A stretch of DNA of 64,000 nucleotides from Rugosimonospora sp. (lineage in GTDB: Bacteria > Actinomycetota > Actinomycetes > Mycobacteriales > Micromonosporaceae). The translations under genes were made by a program, and so were the position numbers. Under the pieces are notes generated by a model. It did not search any database. It was not told the origin of the DNA and saw only the letters and a program-made list of their open reading frames with translations. Positions 51,058 through 60,604 of the stretch are shown one piece after another (position 1 is the stretch's first letter; every line of letters starts with the position of its first letter). The stretch spans positions 757 through 64,756 of the forward strand of contig DATEJJ010000852.1 of NCBI GenBank assembly GCA_035278125.1. The letters are read 5' to 3'.

Positions 51058-51750
51058 TCACCACGGCACCAGGCGCCGGCGCAGCCGGTCGAGGTCGGCA
51101 TCGGCGACACCGGCCGAGCGTAGATACGCCACCGCGCCGCCATAGGCCGTGTCGAGGTGGTCAAGCAGCTGCGGTGCGACATTCGCAGCGAGTCCGATCT
51201 GGTCGGCGGCGAAGTGCTCGGCCGACATGCTGGCGAGGAAGTCCTCGGCGATGGCCTCGGCGGTGACGCCGACGGCGGCGAGCAGCACCGCCGCGAGCGT
51301 GCCGGTCCGCCCCGCCCCCGAGTGGCAGTGGAACACGATCGGTCCGCTCTCCTCCGCAATGGCGCGCACGATCGGCCGCACCCGGTCGGCGGCGGCCGCA
51401 GCGCCCAGCAGCGCGCAGTACCCGCCTTCGAGGGGAATCGGGAACGGAAAACCAGGCGGCACCAACGGCAGTGCCACGACTCGCGGGCCGGTGCCGGCGG
51501 CCCGGAACGGATGCGGTTGCGCCTCCTGCAGCGGCCCCTCCCGTAAATCGACCACGAGGGACACACCGGCCGCGCGGACCGCGGCCCGACCGGCGGCGGT
51601 GAGCCGGAACAGCGAGTCGGACCGGTACAACCGGCCCCATCGGGTCTGGCCCGCACCCACCGGCAGGCCACCGAGATCACGGACGTTCTGGCAGCCGGGC
51701 CAGTCGACACTGCGCTGGACCGGCGACGCACCTGTACGCATGGCGTCCAT
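51058..51750 (-). CDS. Tyrosine/dual-specificity phosphatase-fold protein (Y_phosphatase3-like)
   Basis: CX5R P-loop HCHSGAGRTG. N-terminal NVRDLGG...LYRSD. Confidence 0.8.
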   Translation of the reverse strand: MDAMRTGASPVQRSVDWPGCQNVRDLGGLPVGAGQTRWGRLYRSDSLFRLTAAGRAAVRAAGVSLVVDLREGPLQEAQPHPFRAAGTGPRVVALPLVPPGFPFPIPLEGGYCALLGAAAAADRVRPIVRAIAEESGPIVFHCHSGAGRTGTLAAVLLAAVGVTAEAIAEDFLASMSAEHFAADQIGLAANVAPQLLDHLDTAYGGAVAYLRSAGVADADLDRLRRRLVPW

Positions 51751-51833
51751 GGAATTCGACGACCGGCCGGTTTGGACAGCCGAGCGGATCGAACCTCGAC
51801 CGGGCCACGAGCCGGCCGTGGCACGGTCCGCTC

Positions 51834-57122: not shown

Positions 57123-58187
57123 ATGCACATCCTGTTGACGGGCGGAGCCGGGTTCATCGGCGCCCGCGTGGTCGAAGCGCTGCTCGCTGACGGACACCGG
57201 GTCCGGGTTCTCGACGCGTTACTCGGCAGCGCGCACAGTGAGCCGCCGGCGATACCAGACGGGGTCGAGTTCATCCACGGCGATCTCCGCGACGAGGACA
57301 CGGTCGACGCAGCGCTGCGGGGCGTGGATCTGGTGAACCACCATGCCGCCATGGTCGGACGGGGCAAGGAGATCCGCGAAGCGCCCAACTACGCCGGCAA
57401 CTCCGACCTCGCGACCGCCGTCCTGATCGCCGGCATGCTGCGTCGCGACGTCGGCCGGCTGGTGCTGGCCGGCTCCGTCGTCGTCTACGGCGACTGCCGC
57501 TACCACTGCGCCGAGCACGGCCGGGTCCGTCCCCGCCGCCGCGAGTCGAGCGACCTCGATGCGGGCCGGTTCGAGCCGCGGTGCCCGCGGTGCGGCGCCG
57601 ACGTGACCGCGAGCGCGGCGACCGAGGACGACCTGCCCGACCCGCCACGCAACATGTACGCGGTGACGAAGCTGGCCCAGGAGCTTCTTGTCGCGGCGTG
57701 GGCGGTGCAGACCGGTGGCCGGGCGATCGCCTTGCGCTACCACAACGTCTACGGCCCCGGCATGCCGTTCGCGAGTCCGTACTCCGGCGTCGCGTCGACG
57801 TTCCGGTCGGCCGTGGCGGCCGGTGAACCGCCCCGCGTATACGAGGACGGTGGCCCGCTGCGCGACTTCGTCCACCTGACCGACGTGGCCGCCGCGAACG
57901 TCACCGCGCTGAGCCTGCCGGTCGACGGGTTCCGGGCGTACAACGTCGCCTCCGACACACCGCACACCATCCTGGACCTCGCCGCCGCGCTCGCCGAAGC
58001 GGTGGGCGGGCCGCCGCCCATCGTCACCGGCGAGTACCGCGTCGGCGACGTCCGGCATATCTTCGCTACTGCCGCGCGGCTGCGCGCGGAGAGCGGCTGG
58101 CGGCCCACCGTCGGCTTCACCGAGGGCGTCGCCGAGTTCGCCACCGCACCGATGCGCGGACTCGCCGGGGCGGTGGTGCCGCGATGA
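57123..58187 (+). CDS. NAD-dependent epimerase/dehydratase with a Cys4 (Zn-ribbon-like) insertion
   Basis: ORF 56370..58187. Start at ATG 57123 after GAGGAGG. Motifs: LLTGGAGFIGARV, YAVTKLAQE (YxxxK). Insert: CRYHCAEHG...RCPRCGADV. Confidence 0.85.
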   Translation: MHILLTGGAGFIGARVVEALLADGHRVRVLDALLGSAHSEPPAIPDGVEFIHGDLRDEDTVDAALRGVDLVNHHAAMVGRGKEIREAPNYAGNSDLATAVLIAGMLRRDVGRLVLAGSVVVYGDCRYHCAEHGRVRPRRRESSDLDAGRFEPRCPRCGADVTASAATEDDLPDPPRNMYAVTKLAQELLVAAWAVQTGGRAIALRYHNVYGPGMPFASPYSGVASTFRSAVAAGEPPRVYEDGGPLRDFVHLTDVAAANVTALSLPVDGFRAYNVASDTPHTILDLAAALAEAVGGPPPIVTGEYRVGDVRHIFATAARLRAESGWRPTVGFTEGVAEFATAPMRGLAGAVVPR

Positions 58188-60604
58188 TCCCGCCCTGGAT
58201 CCCGCTCGACGAGGTTGGCCCCGACCACGCGCCGTTGGTCGGGCGCAAAGCGGCGGTGCTCGCAGCGCTGCGGCGGGCCGGGTTCGCCGTACCCGACGGC
58301 TTCTGCGTGCCCGTCGGCACCGACGCGCGTGAGACCGCCGCGGAACTGAGCGCGGCGTTCGCCACGCTCGGCGGCCCGGTGGCGGTCCGGTCATCCGGCG
58401 TCGCCGAGGACGGGACCGTCGCCTCGTACGCCGGCCAACTCGTCACGACGCTGGACGTGTGCACGCCCGGCACGCTGATCGCCGCCGTGGTGGACGGTCA
58501 GGCGTCGGGCGACCGGGCCGGCGTCCACCGCTACCGGCGCGACCGGGACACCGGCACGGACGGCGAGCGCGGCGTCGCGATCCTCGTGCAGCGGATGGTC
58601 GAACCGGTCAGCGCCGGCGTGGCGTTCACCGTCAATCCGGTCACCGGCGCCGACGAACTTGTCGTCGACGCGGTGCCCGGCCTCGCCGACGAGATGGTGA
58701 GCGGGCTCGTCGATCCCGACCACTGGGTGGTCCGCGGCGGCCGGCCCGAGCAGTTGTCCGGCACGCACGGCGCCCTGGACACCGAGACGGCCGCCCGCGT
58801 CGCCGAGCTCGCCACGGCCGTGGCGCGGCACCTGGGCGGCCCGCAGGATATCGAGTGGGCGGTCGACAAGGAGCAGCGGCTGTGGCTACTGCAGGCCCGG
58901 CCGGTCACGACGCTGCCGACTCGACCGGGTCGGATCGCCGCCGCAGCACCAGACGTCGTGCCGATCGACGTGGTGGTGCCGCCCGGCTTCTGGCGCCGCG
59001 ACCCGTACACCACGACGCCCTGGGTGCCGATGCAGGAGTCCGTCTTCGGGCCGGTCTTCAACGCTACTGCACGGCACATGGTGGCGTTCAGCCTCTACGG
59101 GCTGCCGTGCCTGCGGCAGATCGGCGGCTGGCCGTACCACGGGCGGGCCGCCGACGACGAGACCGACGAGGCGCGCTGGGACCGGTTCGGCAAGGCGATC
59201 CTGGCCGGCGAGTACCGGCGGGTCGTGCAGCGCTGGCACCACGCCTGGCGGGCCGAGTTCGCCGCGCGTACCGTCGAGCTGCGTTCGGTCGATCTCAGCA
59301 CGCTGCCGCAGACCTGGCTCGCCGCGCACCTGCTGAGGGTCCGGGTGCTGTTCGCCGACCTGCACGAGGCGTACTTCAGGGTCGCCGGCGCCGGGATCGT
59401 CGCGCTCGGCGAGCTCGGTGTCCTCTGCCGCGACCTGCTGGGCTGGGACGCCGCGCAGACGATCCGGCTGGCCGAGGTGTCCGGCGCGCCACGCCCGCCG
59501 GCCTCGGTCGCACTCGACGAGCTCGCCTCCGTCGCCGCGGGCCGGCCGGCGCTGTGTACCGCGTTGCTGGGCGCAGTCGATCCGCGGGCCGGCTCGATCG
59601 GCGTCGAGCAGCTGGCCGATGTCGATCCCGACTTCGCCACCCGCTTCGCCACCCACATCGCCGCATACGGCCATCGCACCATGGGGTTCGACCTCAGCGA
59701 GCCGACCGTCGCCGAGCGTCCCGGCATCGTGCTGGCGATGCTGCGCAGCCAGATCGGCCGGACCCGGACCCGGGCCGCCGGACGTCGGGCGGAGCCCACC
59801 GCCCCGAACGTCCGCGCGGAGGCCGCGCGTGTACTGGAGGGGGCGCCGAGCATCGACCGGGAGCGCTTCAACCGGGCGCTCGAGGCGTGTGACGCGACCG
59901 CCGGACTGCGCGACGAGAAGTCCGCCCGGGCCGTGGAGGTCTGGGCACTGCTGCGCTATGCGGTGCGCGCCGCCGGCGACCGCCTCGCCGTCCAGGGCCG
60001 GATCGCCGTACCGGACGACGCACTCTACCTGCACGCCGATGAACTGGAGACGGTAATGCGGGACCCGGCCGCGCCACTGCCGGACATCGCGCAGCGGCAG
60101 GCGCAACGACGCTGGGCCCGGCAGCACCCCGGGCCGCCGGTGCACGGCACGTTCACGCCGCCGCCCCCGGTCGATCCGGCGCGGCTGAGCGAACCGGCCC
60201 GCTATGCGCTCGACGTGGTCGGCTGGAGCATGTCGGCCTGGACCGGCGGACGGCGGCCGGACGACACCGGCGACCGCGTCCTGCGCGGCGTCGGCGTGTC
60301 GCCGGGACGCTACGCCGGAACCGTGCGGGTGGTGGCCGGCGCGCATGAGTTCGACAAGGTCCGCCCAGGCGACGTGGTGGTCTGCACCAGTACCACGCCC
60401 CAGTGGAACGACCTGTTCAGCGCGGTCGGCGCGCTCGTCACCGATACCGGCGGCCTGCTGTCGCATCCGGCGATCGTGGCCCGAGAGTACGGCGTGCCAG
60501 CGGTGGTCGCCACCGGCCGCGGCACGCGATCGCTGCGCGACGACCAAGTCGTGACCGTCGACGGCGACACCGGCGAGGTCACCCCGGTGCCCCTGACAAC
60601 CTGA
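58184..60604 (+). CDS. PEP-utilising, rifampicin-phosphotransferase (RPH)/PEP-synthase-like three-domain enzyme
   Basis: N-terminal PPDK_N/ATP-grasp domain (VGRKAAVLAAL..GFAVPDGFCV, VAVRSSGVAEDG, QDIEWA). C-terminal swivel His domain (TDTGGLLSHPAIVAREYGVPAVV). ATGA overlap with the epimerase stop. Confidence 0.85.
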   Translation: MIPPWIPLDEVGPDHAPLVGRKAAVLAALRRAGFAVPDGFCVPVGTDARETAAELSAAFATLGGPVAVRSSGVAEDGTVASYAGQLVTTLDVCTPGTLIAAVVDGQASGDRAGVHRYRRDRDTGTDGERGVAILVQRMVEPVSAGVAFTVNPVTGADELVVDAVPGLADEMVSGLVDPDHWVVRGGRPEQLSGTHGALDTETAARVAELATAVARHLGGPQDIEWAVDKEQRLWLLQARPVTTLPTRPGRIAAAAPDVVPIDVVVPPGFWRRDPYTTTPWVPMQESVFGPVFNATARHMVAFSLYGLPCLRQIGGWPYHGRAADDETDEARWDRFGKAILAGEYRRVVQRWHHAWRAEFAARTVELRSVDLSTLPQTWLAAHLLRVRVLFADLHEAYFRVAGAGIVALGELGVLCRDLLGWDAAQTIRLAEVSGAPRPPASVALDELASVAAGRPALCTALLGAVDPRAGSIGVEQLADVDPDFATRFATHIAAYGHRTMGFDLSEPTVAERPGIVLAMLRSQIGRTRTRAAGRRAEPTAPNVRAEAARVLEGAPSIDRERFNRALEACDATAGLRDEKSARAVEVWALLRYAVRAAGDRLAVQGRIAVPDDALYLHADELETVMRDPAAPLPDIAQRQAQRRWARQHPGPPVHGTFTPPPPVDPARLSEPARYALDVVGWSMSAWTGGRRPDDTGDRVLRGVGVSPGRYAGTVRVVAGAHEFDKVRPGDVVVCTSTTPQWNDLFSAVGALVTDTGGLLSHPAIVAREYGVPAVVATGRGTRSLRDDQVVTVDGDTGEVTPVPLTT

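What the first reader, a model, noticed from the sequence alone, without database searches (positions are those of the whole stretch)
51058..60604. RPH-like PEP-dependent phosphotransferase coupled to a Cys4-insert epimerase, plus a PTP-fold phosphatase, in a polyketide cluster
The 806-aa protein has the ATP-grasp/PPDK_N domain and the swivel-His domain of rifampicin phosphotransferases and PEP synthases (GGLLSHPAIVAREYG). Its central domain is divergent. It is translationally coupled (ATGA) to an SDR epimerase carrying a CxxxC...CxxC insert. A CX5R phosphatase sits next to the minimal PKS. Together they suggest a phosphorylation/dephosphorylation cycle acting on the metabolite or a sugar intermediate. 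That could be self-resistance or prodrug activation, as seen with acarbose and streptomycin phosphates. It would be unusual for a type II polyketide.
Basis: partly seen in the sequence, partly recalled or inferred. Interest (0 to 1): 0.6.

Follow-up and report, generated by a model that had tools for sequence, protein, structure and literature searches.

The report
Antibiotic-style kinase inside polyketide cluster
A gene cluster for a sugar-decorated aromatic polyketide carries an uncharacterised relative of the rifampicin-inactivating kinase, and related clusters also carry this kinase and often a phosphatase, so the producers probably add and later remove a phosphate on their own compound.

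Summary
Gene 58184-60604 encodes an 806-aa protein with an ATP-grasp domain, an RPH-type helical middle domain and a C-terminal swivel histidine (H761). Its ATG overlaps the stop of an SDR gene carrying a Cys-rich insert. A Y_phosphatase3 gene with HCX5R lies beside the minimal PKS.

Three corrections:
- The enzyme has no PEP/pyruvate barrel, so it is an ATP-dependent dikinase, not PEP-dependent.
- The conserved insert motif is CxxH...CxxC. The SDR's conserved partners elsewhere are sugar-pathway genes, so its coupling to the kinase looks local.
It follows the kinase in five other clusters.

The kinase is not the genome's rifamycin phosphotransferase, which lies on another contig. It sits in a separate, uncharacterised clade. 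Of 25 contexts examined, 22 are glycosylated type II PKS clusters. Y_phosphatase3 genes recur in four cluster lineages, and two look secreted. None was found near 79 type II PKS loci that lack the kinase.

The best reading is transient O-phosphorylation of the cluster's own polyketide, for self-protection or as a prodrug. A Cre/Hpe-like tailoring handle is the main rival. No chemistry was tested. The scan had not noted this family on other DNA.

The parts
58184..60604 (+). RPH-type small-molecule dikinase, 806 aa: ATP-grasp (about residues 1-245), helical substrate domain (about 280-690), swivel phospho-histidine domain (about 700-806, H761)
   Evidence: Pfam; precomputed PF27448 Rph_4th; AF2 model with pLDDT 85; Foldseek best matches are the Listeria RPH structures over the full length; H761 and the ATP-grasp residues are invariant in 25 relatives
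60616..61572 (+). Amidohydro_2 protein of the ACMSD / gamma-resorcylate decarboxylase type (318 aa), last gene of the operon
   Evidence: Pfam 4.9e-34; PDB relatives are aromatic-acid decarboxylases; 11-nt gap with a GAGGA ribosome-binding site; orthologues (51-54% identity) lie directly downstream of the kinase in L002, L003, L011, L022 and L119
57123..58187 (+). Extended SDR of the NDP-sugar epimerase/dehydratase type (354 aa) with a roughly 40-aa zinc-ribbon-like insert (C129, H132, C154, C157; also C125). First gene of the operon; its stop overlaps the kinase start
   Evidence: Homologues at 60-70% identity are labelled dTDP-L-rhamnose 4-epimerase by JGI. Conserved neighbours elsewhere are sugar-pathway genes
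56760..57122 (.). Divergent intergenic region between the Anthrone_oxy/OMT/GT operon (-) and the SDR-kinase-decarboxylase operon (+); presumed promoter region
   Evidence: Gene map. The promoter itself was not tested
51058..51750 (-). Y_phosphatase3 (MptpB-like PTP fold) phosphatase, 230 aa, P-loop HCHSGAGRTG, no signal peptide
   Evidence: Pfam 3.4e-41; sequence; closest solved structure is M. tuberculosis PtpB, 1ywf; no upstream in-frame start is possible
61637..63422 (-). DrrB-like ABC-2 permease and DrrA-like ATPase, convergent with the kinase operon; likely exporter
   Evidence: Pfam
43492..46100 (-). Ferredoxin (43492-43695) and two P450s. Context genes that matter for the Cre-like rival explanation
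   Evidence: P450 and/or ferredoxin lie directly upstream of the kinase in L003, L011 and L119

Best explanation
The 806-aa protein is an ATP-dependent small-molecule dikinase of the rifampicin-phosphotransferase (RPH) type.

Proposed mechanism (inferred from the family, not shown here):
- The ATP-grasp domain binds ATP.
- The swivel His761 takes the beta-phosphate, releasing AMP and Pi.
- His761 then carries the phosphate to a hydroxyl held in the helical middle domain.

Proposed substrate (inferred): the cluster's own glycosylated aromatic polyketide or a late intermediate, most likely at a phenolic or enolic OH.

Proposed role (inferred): the phosphate ester is transient. It keeps the compound inactive, soluble and inside the cell during assembly. 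A Y_phosphatase3 enzyme then removes it, in the cytoplasm in this organism and outside the cell in some related clusters. This amounts to self-protection or a prodrug cycle.

Neighbouring genes:
- The adjacent ACMSD-type decarboxylase probably removes the polyketide's salicylate-like carboxyl. It may or may not need the phosphorylated form.
- The upstream SDR makes the sugar and is not part of the cycle.

Shown: domain architecture, fold, intact catalytic residues, clade identity, gene contexts. Inferred: substrate, site of phosphorylation, purpose, and the link to the phosphatase.
For: - Architecture and fold are RPH-type, with all invariant residues present.
- It is not the genome's true RPH. 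That gene lies on contig C807 and scores 1577 bits against a cut-off of 999. P0001 scores 209.
- In a 192-sequence tree P0001 is the deepest branch of a 67-member clade (support 100), with a 29-member sister clade. The true RPH falls in a different clade.
- 22 of 25 clade contexts examined are glycosylated type II PKS clusters. These include 7 of 7 in Amycolatopsis, each 6-9 kb from KS-alpha.
- The gene is often the last gene of the core operon, after KR-ABM-ABM.
- Y_phosphatase3 genes lie inside kinase-bearing clusters in the window, Crossiella (L090), a MAG (G004) and six Amycolatopsis genomes.
- G004 and the one Amycolatopsis copy read (G003) carry an N-terminal export signal.
- Control: 400 genomes without the clade hold 79 KS-alpha loci with no listed Y_phosphatase3 within 40 kb.
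- Stand-alone clade members sit next to MarR, two-component systems or ABC transporter genes, as acquired resistance genes do (L012, L118). MarR is also adjacent in L117 and L119.
- Phenol phosphorylation by RPH-type dikinases, followed by a dedicated phosphatase, is established for HpeHI/HpeD (PMC12167813, PMC9618137).
Against: - No phosphorylated type II polyketide was found in the literature searches.
- The amexanthomycin review consulted mentions no phosphate on those products, and the link between that cluster and this kinase clade was not verified.
- The window's phosphatase has no export signal and is only 33-36% identical to the in-cluster phosphatases elsewhere. Two of those have Asp in place of the catalytic Cys. 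The partner is therefore not one orthologous gene.
- No phosphatase was found in or near the clusters of G001 and G002. For many others only +/-10 kb was seen.
- Tight coupling to a decarboxylase and a place inside core biosynthetic operons fit a tailoring role at least as well as immunity.
- Half of the control's Y_phosphatase3 matches were not listed.
Confidence: 0.42

Rival explanations
1. The phosphate is a tailoring handle, as in the Cre and Hpe catabolic pathways. The dikinase phosphorylates a phenolic OH of an aglycone intermediate. A downstream tailoring enzyme (a P450 with ferredoxin, or the ACMSD-type decarboxylase) accepts only the phosphorylated form. The phosphatase then restores the phenol. 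The cycle would be obligatory for biosynthesis, not for immunity.
For: - In the Hpe pathway the carboxylase takes only the phospho-substrate, and HpeD then dephosphorylates it (PMC9618137).
- HpeHI, CreHI and PpsAB are RPH-type dikinases for phenols (PMC12167813).
- As in PpsA and CreH, a Ser precedes the catalytic His.
- The kinase is directly followed by the decarboxylase in six clusters (window, L002, L003, L011, L022, L119).
- It is directly preceded by a P450 and/or ferredoxin in L003, L011 and L119.
- The window has two P450s, a ferredoxin, the decarboxylase and a cytoplasmic phosphatase.
- The gene often closes the core PKS operon.
Against: - Exported phosphatases in two lineages do not suit an intracellular handle.
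- Stand-alone clade members with MarR lie outside any cluster.
- The decarboxylase is absent or distant in most clusters (for example L001, L090, L091, L093, L120, G003).
- That the Cre pathway uses a phosphate-recognising P450 rests on my memory, not on a paper read here.
Confidence: 0.22
2. Phospho-activation, as in PigC/RedH. The enzyme phosphorylates a carbonyl or enol oxygen to make it a leaving group. This would drive a condensation, ring closure, elimination or deoxygenation, and no phosphate ester would ever accumulate.
For: - It has the same three-domain architecture as the prodiginine ligases. RedH and PigC models hit at 201 and 181 bits.
- Its position at the end of core PKS/cyclase/ABM operons suggests an early aglycone step.
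- This reading explains why no phosphorylated products are known.
Against: - Scores are far below the RedH and PigC cut-offs (1350 and 1300).
- It leaves the recurrent in-cluster phosphatases unexplained.
- It does not explain the stand-alone MarR-linked copies.
- No missing condensation step is evident in these clusters, which already encode TcmI-, TcmJ- and TcmN-type cyclases.
Confidence: 0.1
3. Sugar-pathway enzyme working with the translationally coupled SDR. The dikinase would phosphorylate a sugar or sugar-like intermediate (compare glucan, water dikinase) that the SDR and a nucleotidyltransferase then process.
For: - ATGA coupling to the SDR.
- In L002 the kinase operon continues into an NTP-transferase and an epimerase.
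- In L117 the NTP-transferase and SDR lie two genes upstream.
- An NCBIfam model of an SDR fused to an RPH C-terminal half exists: NF004520 hits both proteins.
Against: - These clusters hold 4-7 glycosyltransferases and many sugar genes, so chance adjacency is likely.
- In G003 and G004 the SDR sits 22-35 kb from the kinase, with its own methyltransferase and SDR partners.
- Stand-alone kinases have no sugar genes nearby.
- The SDR's match to NF004520 is only the generic Rossmann N-terminus (32 bits).
Confidence: 0.05
4. Ordinary rifamycin resistance enzyme or housekeeping PEP synthase that merely lies near the cluster.
For: Database names of homologues include 'rifampicin phosphotransferase' and 'pyruvate, water dikinase'.
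Against: - It scores below every equivalog cut-off: RPH 209 against 999, PpsA 195 against 740.
- It has no PEP/pyruvate barrel.
- A true RPH is encoded elsewhere in the genome.
- It falls in a separate clade.
- The clade is consistently linked to type II PKS clusters across genera.
Confidence: 0.02

Closest known systems
Rifampin phosphotransferase RPH (Listeria monocytogenes structures 5FBS, 5HV1; NCBIfam NF041857)
   Same: Single polypeptide with an ATP-grasp domain, a helical substrate-binding domain and a C-terminal swivel His domain. The catalytic His lies in a GG..SH motif within 50 residues of the C-terminus. It is the best structural match over the full length (E 7e-34).
   Different: - About 20% identity.
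- 209 bits against a cut-off of 999.
- Separate clade from the genome's own RPH.
- Encoded inside type II polyketide clusters rather than as a lone resistance gene.
- Substrate unknown.
Two-component phenol dikinases HpeHI, CreHI and PpsAB, with their pathway phosphatase HpeD (PMC12167813, PMC9618137)
   Same: RPH-type ATP-grasp, swivel-His and substrate domains. They phosphorylate phenolic hydroxyls of aromatic compounds. The phosphate is transient and a dedicated phosphatase removes it. A (de)carboxylation step is part of the same pathway. HpeI (9goj) is among the structural hits.
   Different: - Those enzymes are split into two proteins and act in catabolism of small phenols.
- Their phosphatase is of another family: HpeD's closest characterised homologue is NagD.
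- Their carboxylases are biotin-dependent, or in Thauera an unrelated enzyme, not Amidohydro_2.
Prodiginine ligases PigC and RedH (NF052631, NF052632)
   Same: Same three-domain architecture. They are biosynthetic members of the family and sit inside gene clusters.
   Different: Scores of 181 and 201 bits against cut-offs of 1300 and 1350. There are no prodiginine genes here. Those enzymes use phosphorylation to drive a condensation rather than to make a phosphate ester.
Phosphorylation-based self-protection in antibiotic producers, such as streptomycin 6-phosphate with an extracellular phosphatase (recalled from memory, not checked here)
   Same: A kinase and a phosphatase are encoded in the biosynthetic cluster. 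In two related lineages the phosphatase has an export signal.
   Different: Those kinases are APH-type, not dikinases. No example is known for type II polyketides. The phosphatase in this window is cytoplasmic.

Membership tests
RPH (rifamycin-inactivating phosphotransferase, NF041857) | Three domains in one chain: ATP-grasp, helical substrate domain, C-terminal swivel His domain | tested here: met
   Pfam; PF27448 Rph_4th precomputed; AF2 model and Foldseek
RPH (rifamycin-inactivating phosphotransferase, NF041857) | Catalytic His in a conserved motif within about 50 residues of the C-terminus | tested here: met
   GGLLSH761PAIVAREYG, 45 residues from the end; invariant in 25 relatives
RPH (rifamycin-inactivating phosphotransferase, NF041857) | Score above the curated equivalog cut-off | tested here: not met
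   209 bits against 999. The genome's own RPH on C807 scores 1577
RPH (rifamycin-inactivating phosphotransferase, NF041857) | Groups with proven RPHs in a tree | tested here: not met
   P0001 lies in a 96-row clade (support 99). The own-genome RPH lies in a different 65-row clade (support 98). FastTree only, and no experimentally proven RPH sequence was included
RPH (rifamycin-inactivating phosphotransferase, NF041857) | Phosphorylates rifamycins and confers resistance | not testable with these tools
   Needs an assay
PEP synthase / pyruvate phosphate dikinase | C-terminal PEP/pyruvate-binding TIM barrel (PF02896), with the His domain in the middle | tested here: not met
   No PF02896 hit. The His domain is C-terminal. 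TIGR01418 scores 195 against a cut-off of 740. Foldseek aligns only the ATP-grasp and His parts
PigC/RedH prodiginine ligases | Score above the equivalog cut-off, and prodiginine cluster context | tested here: not met
   181 against 1300 and 201 against 1350. The context is a type II PKS cluster
Two-component phenol dikinases (HpeHI/CreHI/PpsAB) | ATP-grasp and His/substrate parts on separate polypeptides | tested here: not met
   Single 806-aa ORF
Two-component phenol dikinases (HpeHI/CreHI/PpsAB) | Phenolic hydroxyl as the phosphate acceptor | not testable with these tools
   Inference only. The cluster product is a polyphenol-type polyketide
Extended SDR, NDP-sugar epimerase/dehydratase (PF01370) | GxxGxxG NAD motif and catalytic YxxxK | tested here: met
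   GGAGFIG at 7-13. Y179 and K183 are invariant in 21 sequences. Pfam 6e-42. Aligns to UDP-hexose 4-epimerases 6WJB and MoeE5
dTDP-L-rhamnose 4-epimerase (label given to homologues by JGI) | Demonstrated activity or orthology to the characterised enzyme | not tested
   This is only a source label on homologues at 60-70% identity. No characterised member was compared
Y_phosphatase3 / PTP-fold phosphatase (PF13350) | Pfam score above cut-off and P-loop HCX5R(S/T) | tested here: met
   142 bits against 22. HCHSGAGRTG. Nearest structure is MptpB 1ywf
ACMSD-type Amidohydro_2 decarboxylases (PF04909) | Pfam score above cut-off; metal ligands HxH, His and Asp | tested here: inconclusive
   119 bits against 26. 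PDB relatives are gamma-resorcylate, ACMSD, LigW and IDCase decarboxylases. VHHH, AHGGG and GTDW are seen by eye. No NCBIfam equivalog hit. The family also holds lactonases and hydratases

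The most novel reading that the evidence does not exclude
A whole clade of RPH-type dikinases, about 100 members in this sample across many actinomycete genera, installs a transient phosphate on aromatic polyketides. These glycosylated type II polyketides would then be made and exported as phosphate-ester prodrugs. Dedicated PTP-fold phosphatases, some secreted, would unmask them. 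This would be a self-protection and activation logic not described before for type II polyketides. It would also be the biosynthetic counterpart of the phenol-phosphorylating Cre and Hpe catabolic pathways.
Probability: 0.3. Interest if true: 0.8.

Novelty: new variant of a known kind. Interest (0 to 1): 0.6.

Why it matters
- RPH-type dikinases are known as rifamycin resistance enzymes, prodiginine ligases and starters of phenol catabolism. A large clade embedded in aromatic polyketide clusters would add a fourth role.
- It would predict hidden phosphorylated intermediates or prodrugs in a heavily studied class of antibiotics.
- Phosphate esters are easily lost or missed in ethyl-acetate extracts. 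This could explain 'silent' or low-titre clusters and suggests changes to extraction and heterologous-expression protocols.
- The stand-alone, MarR-linked copies suggest that the same enzymes may act as transferable inactivating enzymes for aromatic polyketide antibiotics.
- The claim can be tested directly with one purified protein, ATP and culture extracts.

Tried and rejected
- Literature searches found no report of this gene family in type II PKS clusters. The searches covered type II polyketide with amidohydrolase and phosphotransferase, aromatic polyketide with PEP synthase, rifampicin phosphotransferase with BGC and PigC, and 'PEP-utilizing enzyme' with 'type II PKS'.
- Rishirilide lead (RslP 'phosphotransferase', RslH 'amidohydrolase'). 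The papers give no family for RslP. Deleting rslH had no effect on the product. I could not compare sequences, so the lead is left open.
- A KS-alpha homologue search meant to name the product class was uninformative. All type II KS-alpha proteins are 65-78% identical, and the names are generic.
- A class-wide search of 400 genomes for the kinase returned only the window itself. It served only as a rarity figure and as a control set.
- tblastn of the phosphatase against related clusters found nothing. The HMM-based genome search did find homologues.
- One Pfam call failed because of a wrong frame and was repeated.
- The amexanthomycin cluster of A. mediterranei may be the cluster that holds clade member P0086. 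This could not be verified.
- I rejected the 605-aa reading of ORF 56370-58187. Only its last 354 residues are the SDR.

Full report
**Gene map**

The window is high-GC actinomycete DNA. I called genes by third-position GC and Pfam.

- The left 23 kb is an acarbose-like C7N-cyclitol cluster.
- From about 34 kb to the end lies a glycosylated type II polyketide cluster.

Between about 34 kb and 51 kb the polyketide cluster contains:
- a SARP regulator, a TcmI-type cyclase and methyltransferases;
- ABM and luciferase-like oxygenases;
- two of the cluster's four glycosyltransferases;
- a ferredoxin (43492-43695) with two P450s;
- KR, Anthrone_oxy, a TcmN-type cyclase, ACP, CLF, KS-alpha and a cupin.

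The region of the finding then follows:
- Y_phosphatase3, 51058-51750 (-)
- POT transporter and methyltransferase, 51834-54055 (+)
- glycosyltransferase, 54106-55236 (-)
- O-methyltransferase and Anthrone_oxy, to 56759 (-)
- the operon SDR 57123-58187, dikinase 58184-60604 and Amidohydro_2 60616-61572 (+)
- convergent DrrB/DrrA genes
- a further glycosyltransferase

**The observation**

- The 806-aa protein contains GGLLSHPAIVAREYG.
- Pfam finds PPDK_N and the PEP-utilizers mobile domain.
- The ATG at 58184 overlaps the SDR stop codon.
- The SDR carries CRYHC...CPRC.
- The phosphatase has HCHSGAGRTG.

Four refinements are needed.
- The SDR starts at 57123, not at the start of the 605-aa ORF.
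- In 21 family members the conserved insert residues are C129, H132, C154 and C157. This gives a CxxH...CxxC motif. The first Cys is usually Ser.
- The kinase's middle domain is annotated PF27448 (Rph_4th) in the precomputed tables and is all-helical in the model.
It is an Amidohydro_2 protein with an 11-nt gap and its own ribosome-binding site.

**What the kinase is**

- It lacks the PEP/pyruvate TIM barrel of PEP synthase and PPDK, and its His domain is C-terminal. It is therefore an ATP-dependent dikinase of the RPH architecture, not a PEP-dependent enzyme.
- The AlphaFold model has a mean pLDDT of 85. It matches the Listeria RPH structures over its full length (E 7e-34). PEP synthase and PPDK match only in the ATP-grasp and His parts.
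- It scores far below every curated equivalog: RPH 209 against 999, RedH 201 against 1350, PigC 181 against 1300, PpsA 195 against 740.
- The genome encodes a true RPH on another contig, at 1577 bits.
- In a FastTree of 192 relatives, P0001 is the deepest branch of a 67-member clade (support 100) with a 29-member sister clade. The true RPH lies in a different clade.
- The nearest relatives are only 46% identical.
- No clade member was found in an even sample of 400 genomes of the class.

**Where the clade lives**

I examined 25 contexts, and 22 are glycosylated type II PKS clusters.
- These clusters share a core of TcmI cyclase, cupin, KS-alpha, CLF, ACP, cyclase, Anthrone_oxy, KR and ABM. The contexts are L001-L003, L010, L011, L013, L022, L090-L093, L117, L119, L120, six further Amycolatopsis genomes and the window.
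- In Amycolatopsis, 7 of 121 genomes carry a full-length member. All seven lie 6-9 kb from a KS-alpha gene.
- The gene often closes the core operon after KR-ABM-ABM (L002, L090, L120).
- Three members stand alone: L012 next to MarR; L118 among a SARP-like regulator, a two-component system, an ABC transporter and MarR; and L014 in a genome with no type II KS-alpha.
- The stand-alone L012 is nested beside the cluster-borne L119 in the tree.

**The neighbours**

*The decarboxylase*
- The Amidohydro_2 protein's solved relatives are gamma-resorcylate, ACMSD, LigW, IDCase and 2,3-DHBA decarboxylases.
- Orthologues (51-54% identity) follow the kinase directly in L002, L003, L011, L022 and L119.
- The likely job is removal of the salicylate-like terminal carboxyl of the polyketide.

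*The SDR*
- It belongs to a large actinomycete family (60-70% identity) that JGI labels dTDP-L-rhamnose 4-epimerase. It aligns with UDP-hexose 4-epimerases.
- Its conserved partners in G003, G004, L116 and L117 are sugar-pathway genes. They are the orthologue of the window's 53318-54055 methyltransferase, a second NDP-sugar SDR (orthologue of the 31.9-kb gene), an NTP-transferase and glycosyltransferases.
- It is a frequent member of these clusters, but it is adjacent to the kinase only here and two genes away in L117.
- I therefore read the ATGA coupling as a local arrangement, not a functional pairing.

**The phosphatase**

- The window's enzyme is MptpB-like and cytoplasmic.
- Y_phosphatase3 genes also lie inside kinase-bearing clusters in Crossiella (L090), in a MAG (G004) and in six Amycolatopsis genomes. 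In Amycolatopsis each lies 16-18 kb from the kinase, just beyond the KS.
- They are not one orthologous gene:
  - G003, the one Amycolatopsis copy read, has an N-terminal signal and an extra domain, with HCX5R.
  - G004 has a twin-arginine signal (TRRNLL) and HDX5R.
  - L090 also has HD.
- As a control I used the 400 genomes without the clade. Their 79 type II KS-alpha loci have no Y_phosphatase3 within 40 kb among the 150 of 302 matches the tool listed. The nearest are at 45 and 66 kb.
- The association is therefore real but heterogeneous, which suggests repeated recruitment.

**Mechanism**

The family mechanism is well established: ATP, then His~P, then a substrate hydroxyl, releasing AMP and Pi (discussion in PMC12167813). 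Precedent for phenolic acceptors comes from the two-component dikinases HpeHI, CreHI and PpsAB. In the Hpe pathway the next enzyme accepts only the phosphorylated substrate, and a dedicated phosphatase then removes the phosphate (PMC9618137).

I propose that this clade O-phosphorylates the cluster's own polyketide and that the phosphate is transient. Three points favour self-protection or a prodrug over a pure tailoring handle:
- the export signals on two phosphatase types;
- the stand-alone MarR-linked copies;
- the adjacency to exporters (DrrAB here; a fused ABC transporter in L003 and L119).

The tailoring-handle reading remains a strong rival. The reasons are the tight linkage to the decarboxylase, the P450 and ferredoxin genes directly upstream in three clusters, and the position inside core operons. 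PigC-like activation, a sugar-pathway role and plain rifamycin resistance are less likely, for the reasons given under the rivals.

**Limits**

- No chemistry was tested.
- The tree is FastTree only, and it lacks HpeH, CreH, PigC, RedH and proven RPH sequences.
- Most contexts were seen only to +/-10 kb.
- Export signals were judged by eye.
- The phosphatase control is incomplete.
- The Amycolatopsis clusters are orthologous to each other and count as one lineage.
- The product of the window's cluster is unknown.

**Verdict**

This is a new, uncharacterised variant of a known enzyme kind, and its context is consistent and testable.

Noticed in passing
window 1-23500: An acarbose-like C7N-cyclitol cluster lies directly beside the polyketide cluster. 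It contains a 2-epi-5-epi-valiolone-synthase-like DHQS fused to a cupin (9022-10701), an aminotransferase, an NTP-transferase, three large GT5/GT4-like proteins, two amylases and a GlgE-like protein.
   Followed up: partly
G503:C26:67100-68473, G481:C6:198849-200219, G521:C1:192429-193769: Three Amycolatopsis genomes match only residues about 340-803 of the kinase (middle plus His domain). The matches lie inside long open frames of 912-1226 aa and are not near a KS-alpha. They may be fusion proteins like NCBIfam NF004520 (SDR plus RPH C-terminal half), which hit both the SDR and the kinase.
   Followed up: no
L003:9710-20132 and L119:9726-20430: A conserved sub-cluster: ferredoxin, dikinase, Amidohydro_2, (MarR), a FAD_binding_3 monooxygenase, two proteins without Pfam hits, and a fused ABC exporter of about 1200 aa. 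A roughly 400-aa FAD enzyme also follows the kinase in L001 and L092.
   Followed up: no
L091:8585-9826, L093:8556-9806, L090:18133-19140: Related clusters carry a Sulfotransfer_3 gene divergent from the kinase (Actinoplanes, A. balhimycina), or an APS-kinase fused to PNPOx (Crossiella). This suggests that some family members are sulfated. In the window the PNPOx domain is fused to an FkbM methyltransferase instead (41038-42300).
   Followed up: no
G004:C2:870597-871250 and L090:1-324: The in-cluster Y_phosphatase3 proteins here have HDX5R instead of HCX5R (Asp at the nucleophile position). The G004 copy has a twin-arginine signal peptide.
   Followed up: partly
window 54106-55236 (-): A GT1-family glycosyltransferase (MRVLFVTFNGGSHFY...) is hidden inside a 958-aa spurious ORF. 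My first GC3 filter missed it.
   Followed up: partly
L117:1-1031 and window 51834-53321: A POT/PTR2-family transporter, unusual in polyketide clusters, recurs in a metagenomic cluster. That cluster also holds the 245-aa methyltransferase, the Cys-insert SDR and an 862-aa RPH-like protein next to MarR.
   Followed up: no
window 56970-57190 (+): A short ORF with a GGAGGA ribosome-binding site (MRVGTLLRHLGRGAELLGW...) runs into the SDR start in another frame. I did not test whether it is coding.
   Followed up: no
G000:C255:18649-19908: The genome has a second type II KS-alpha (71% identical) on another contig.
   Followed up: no
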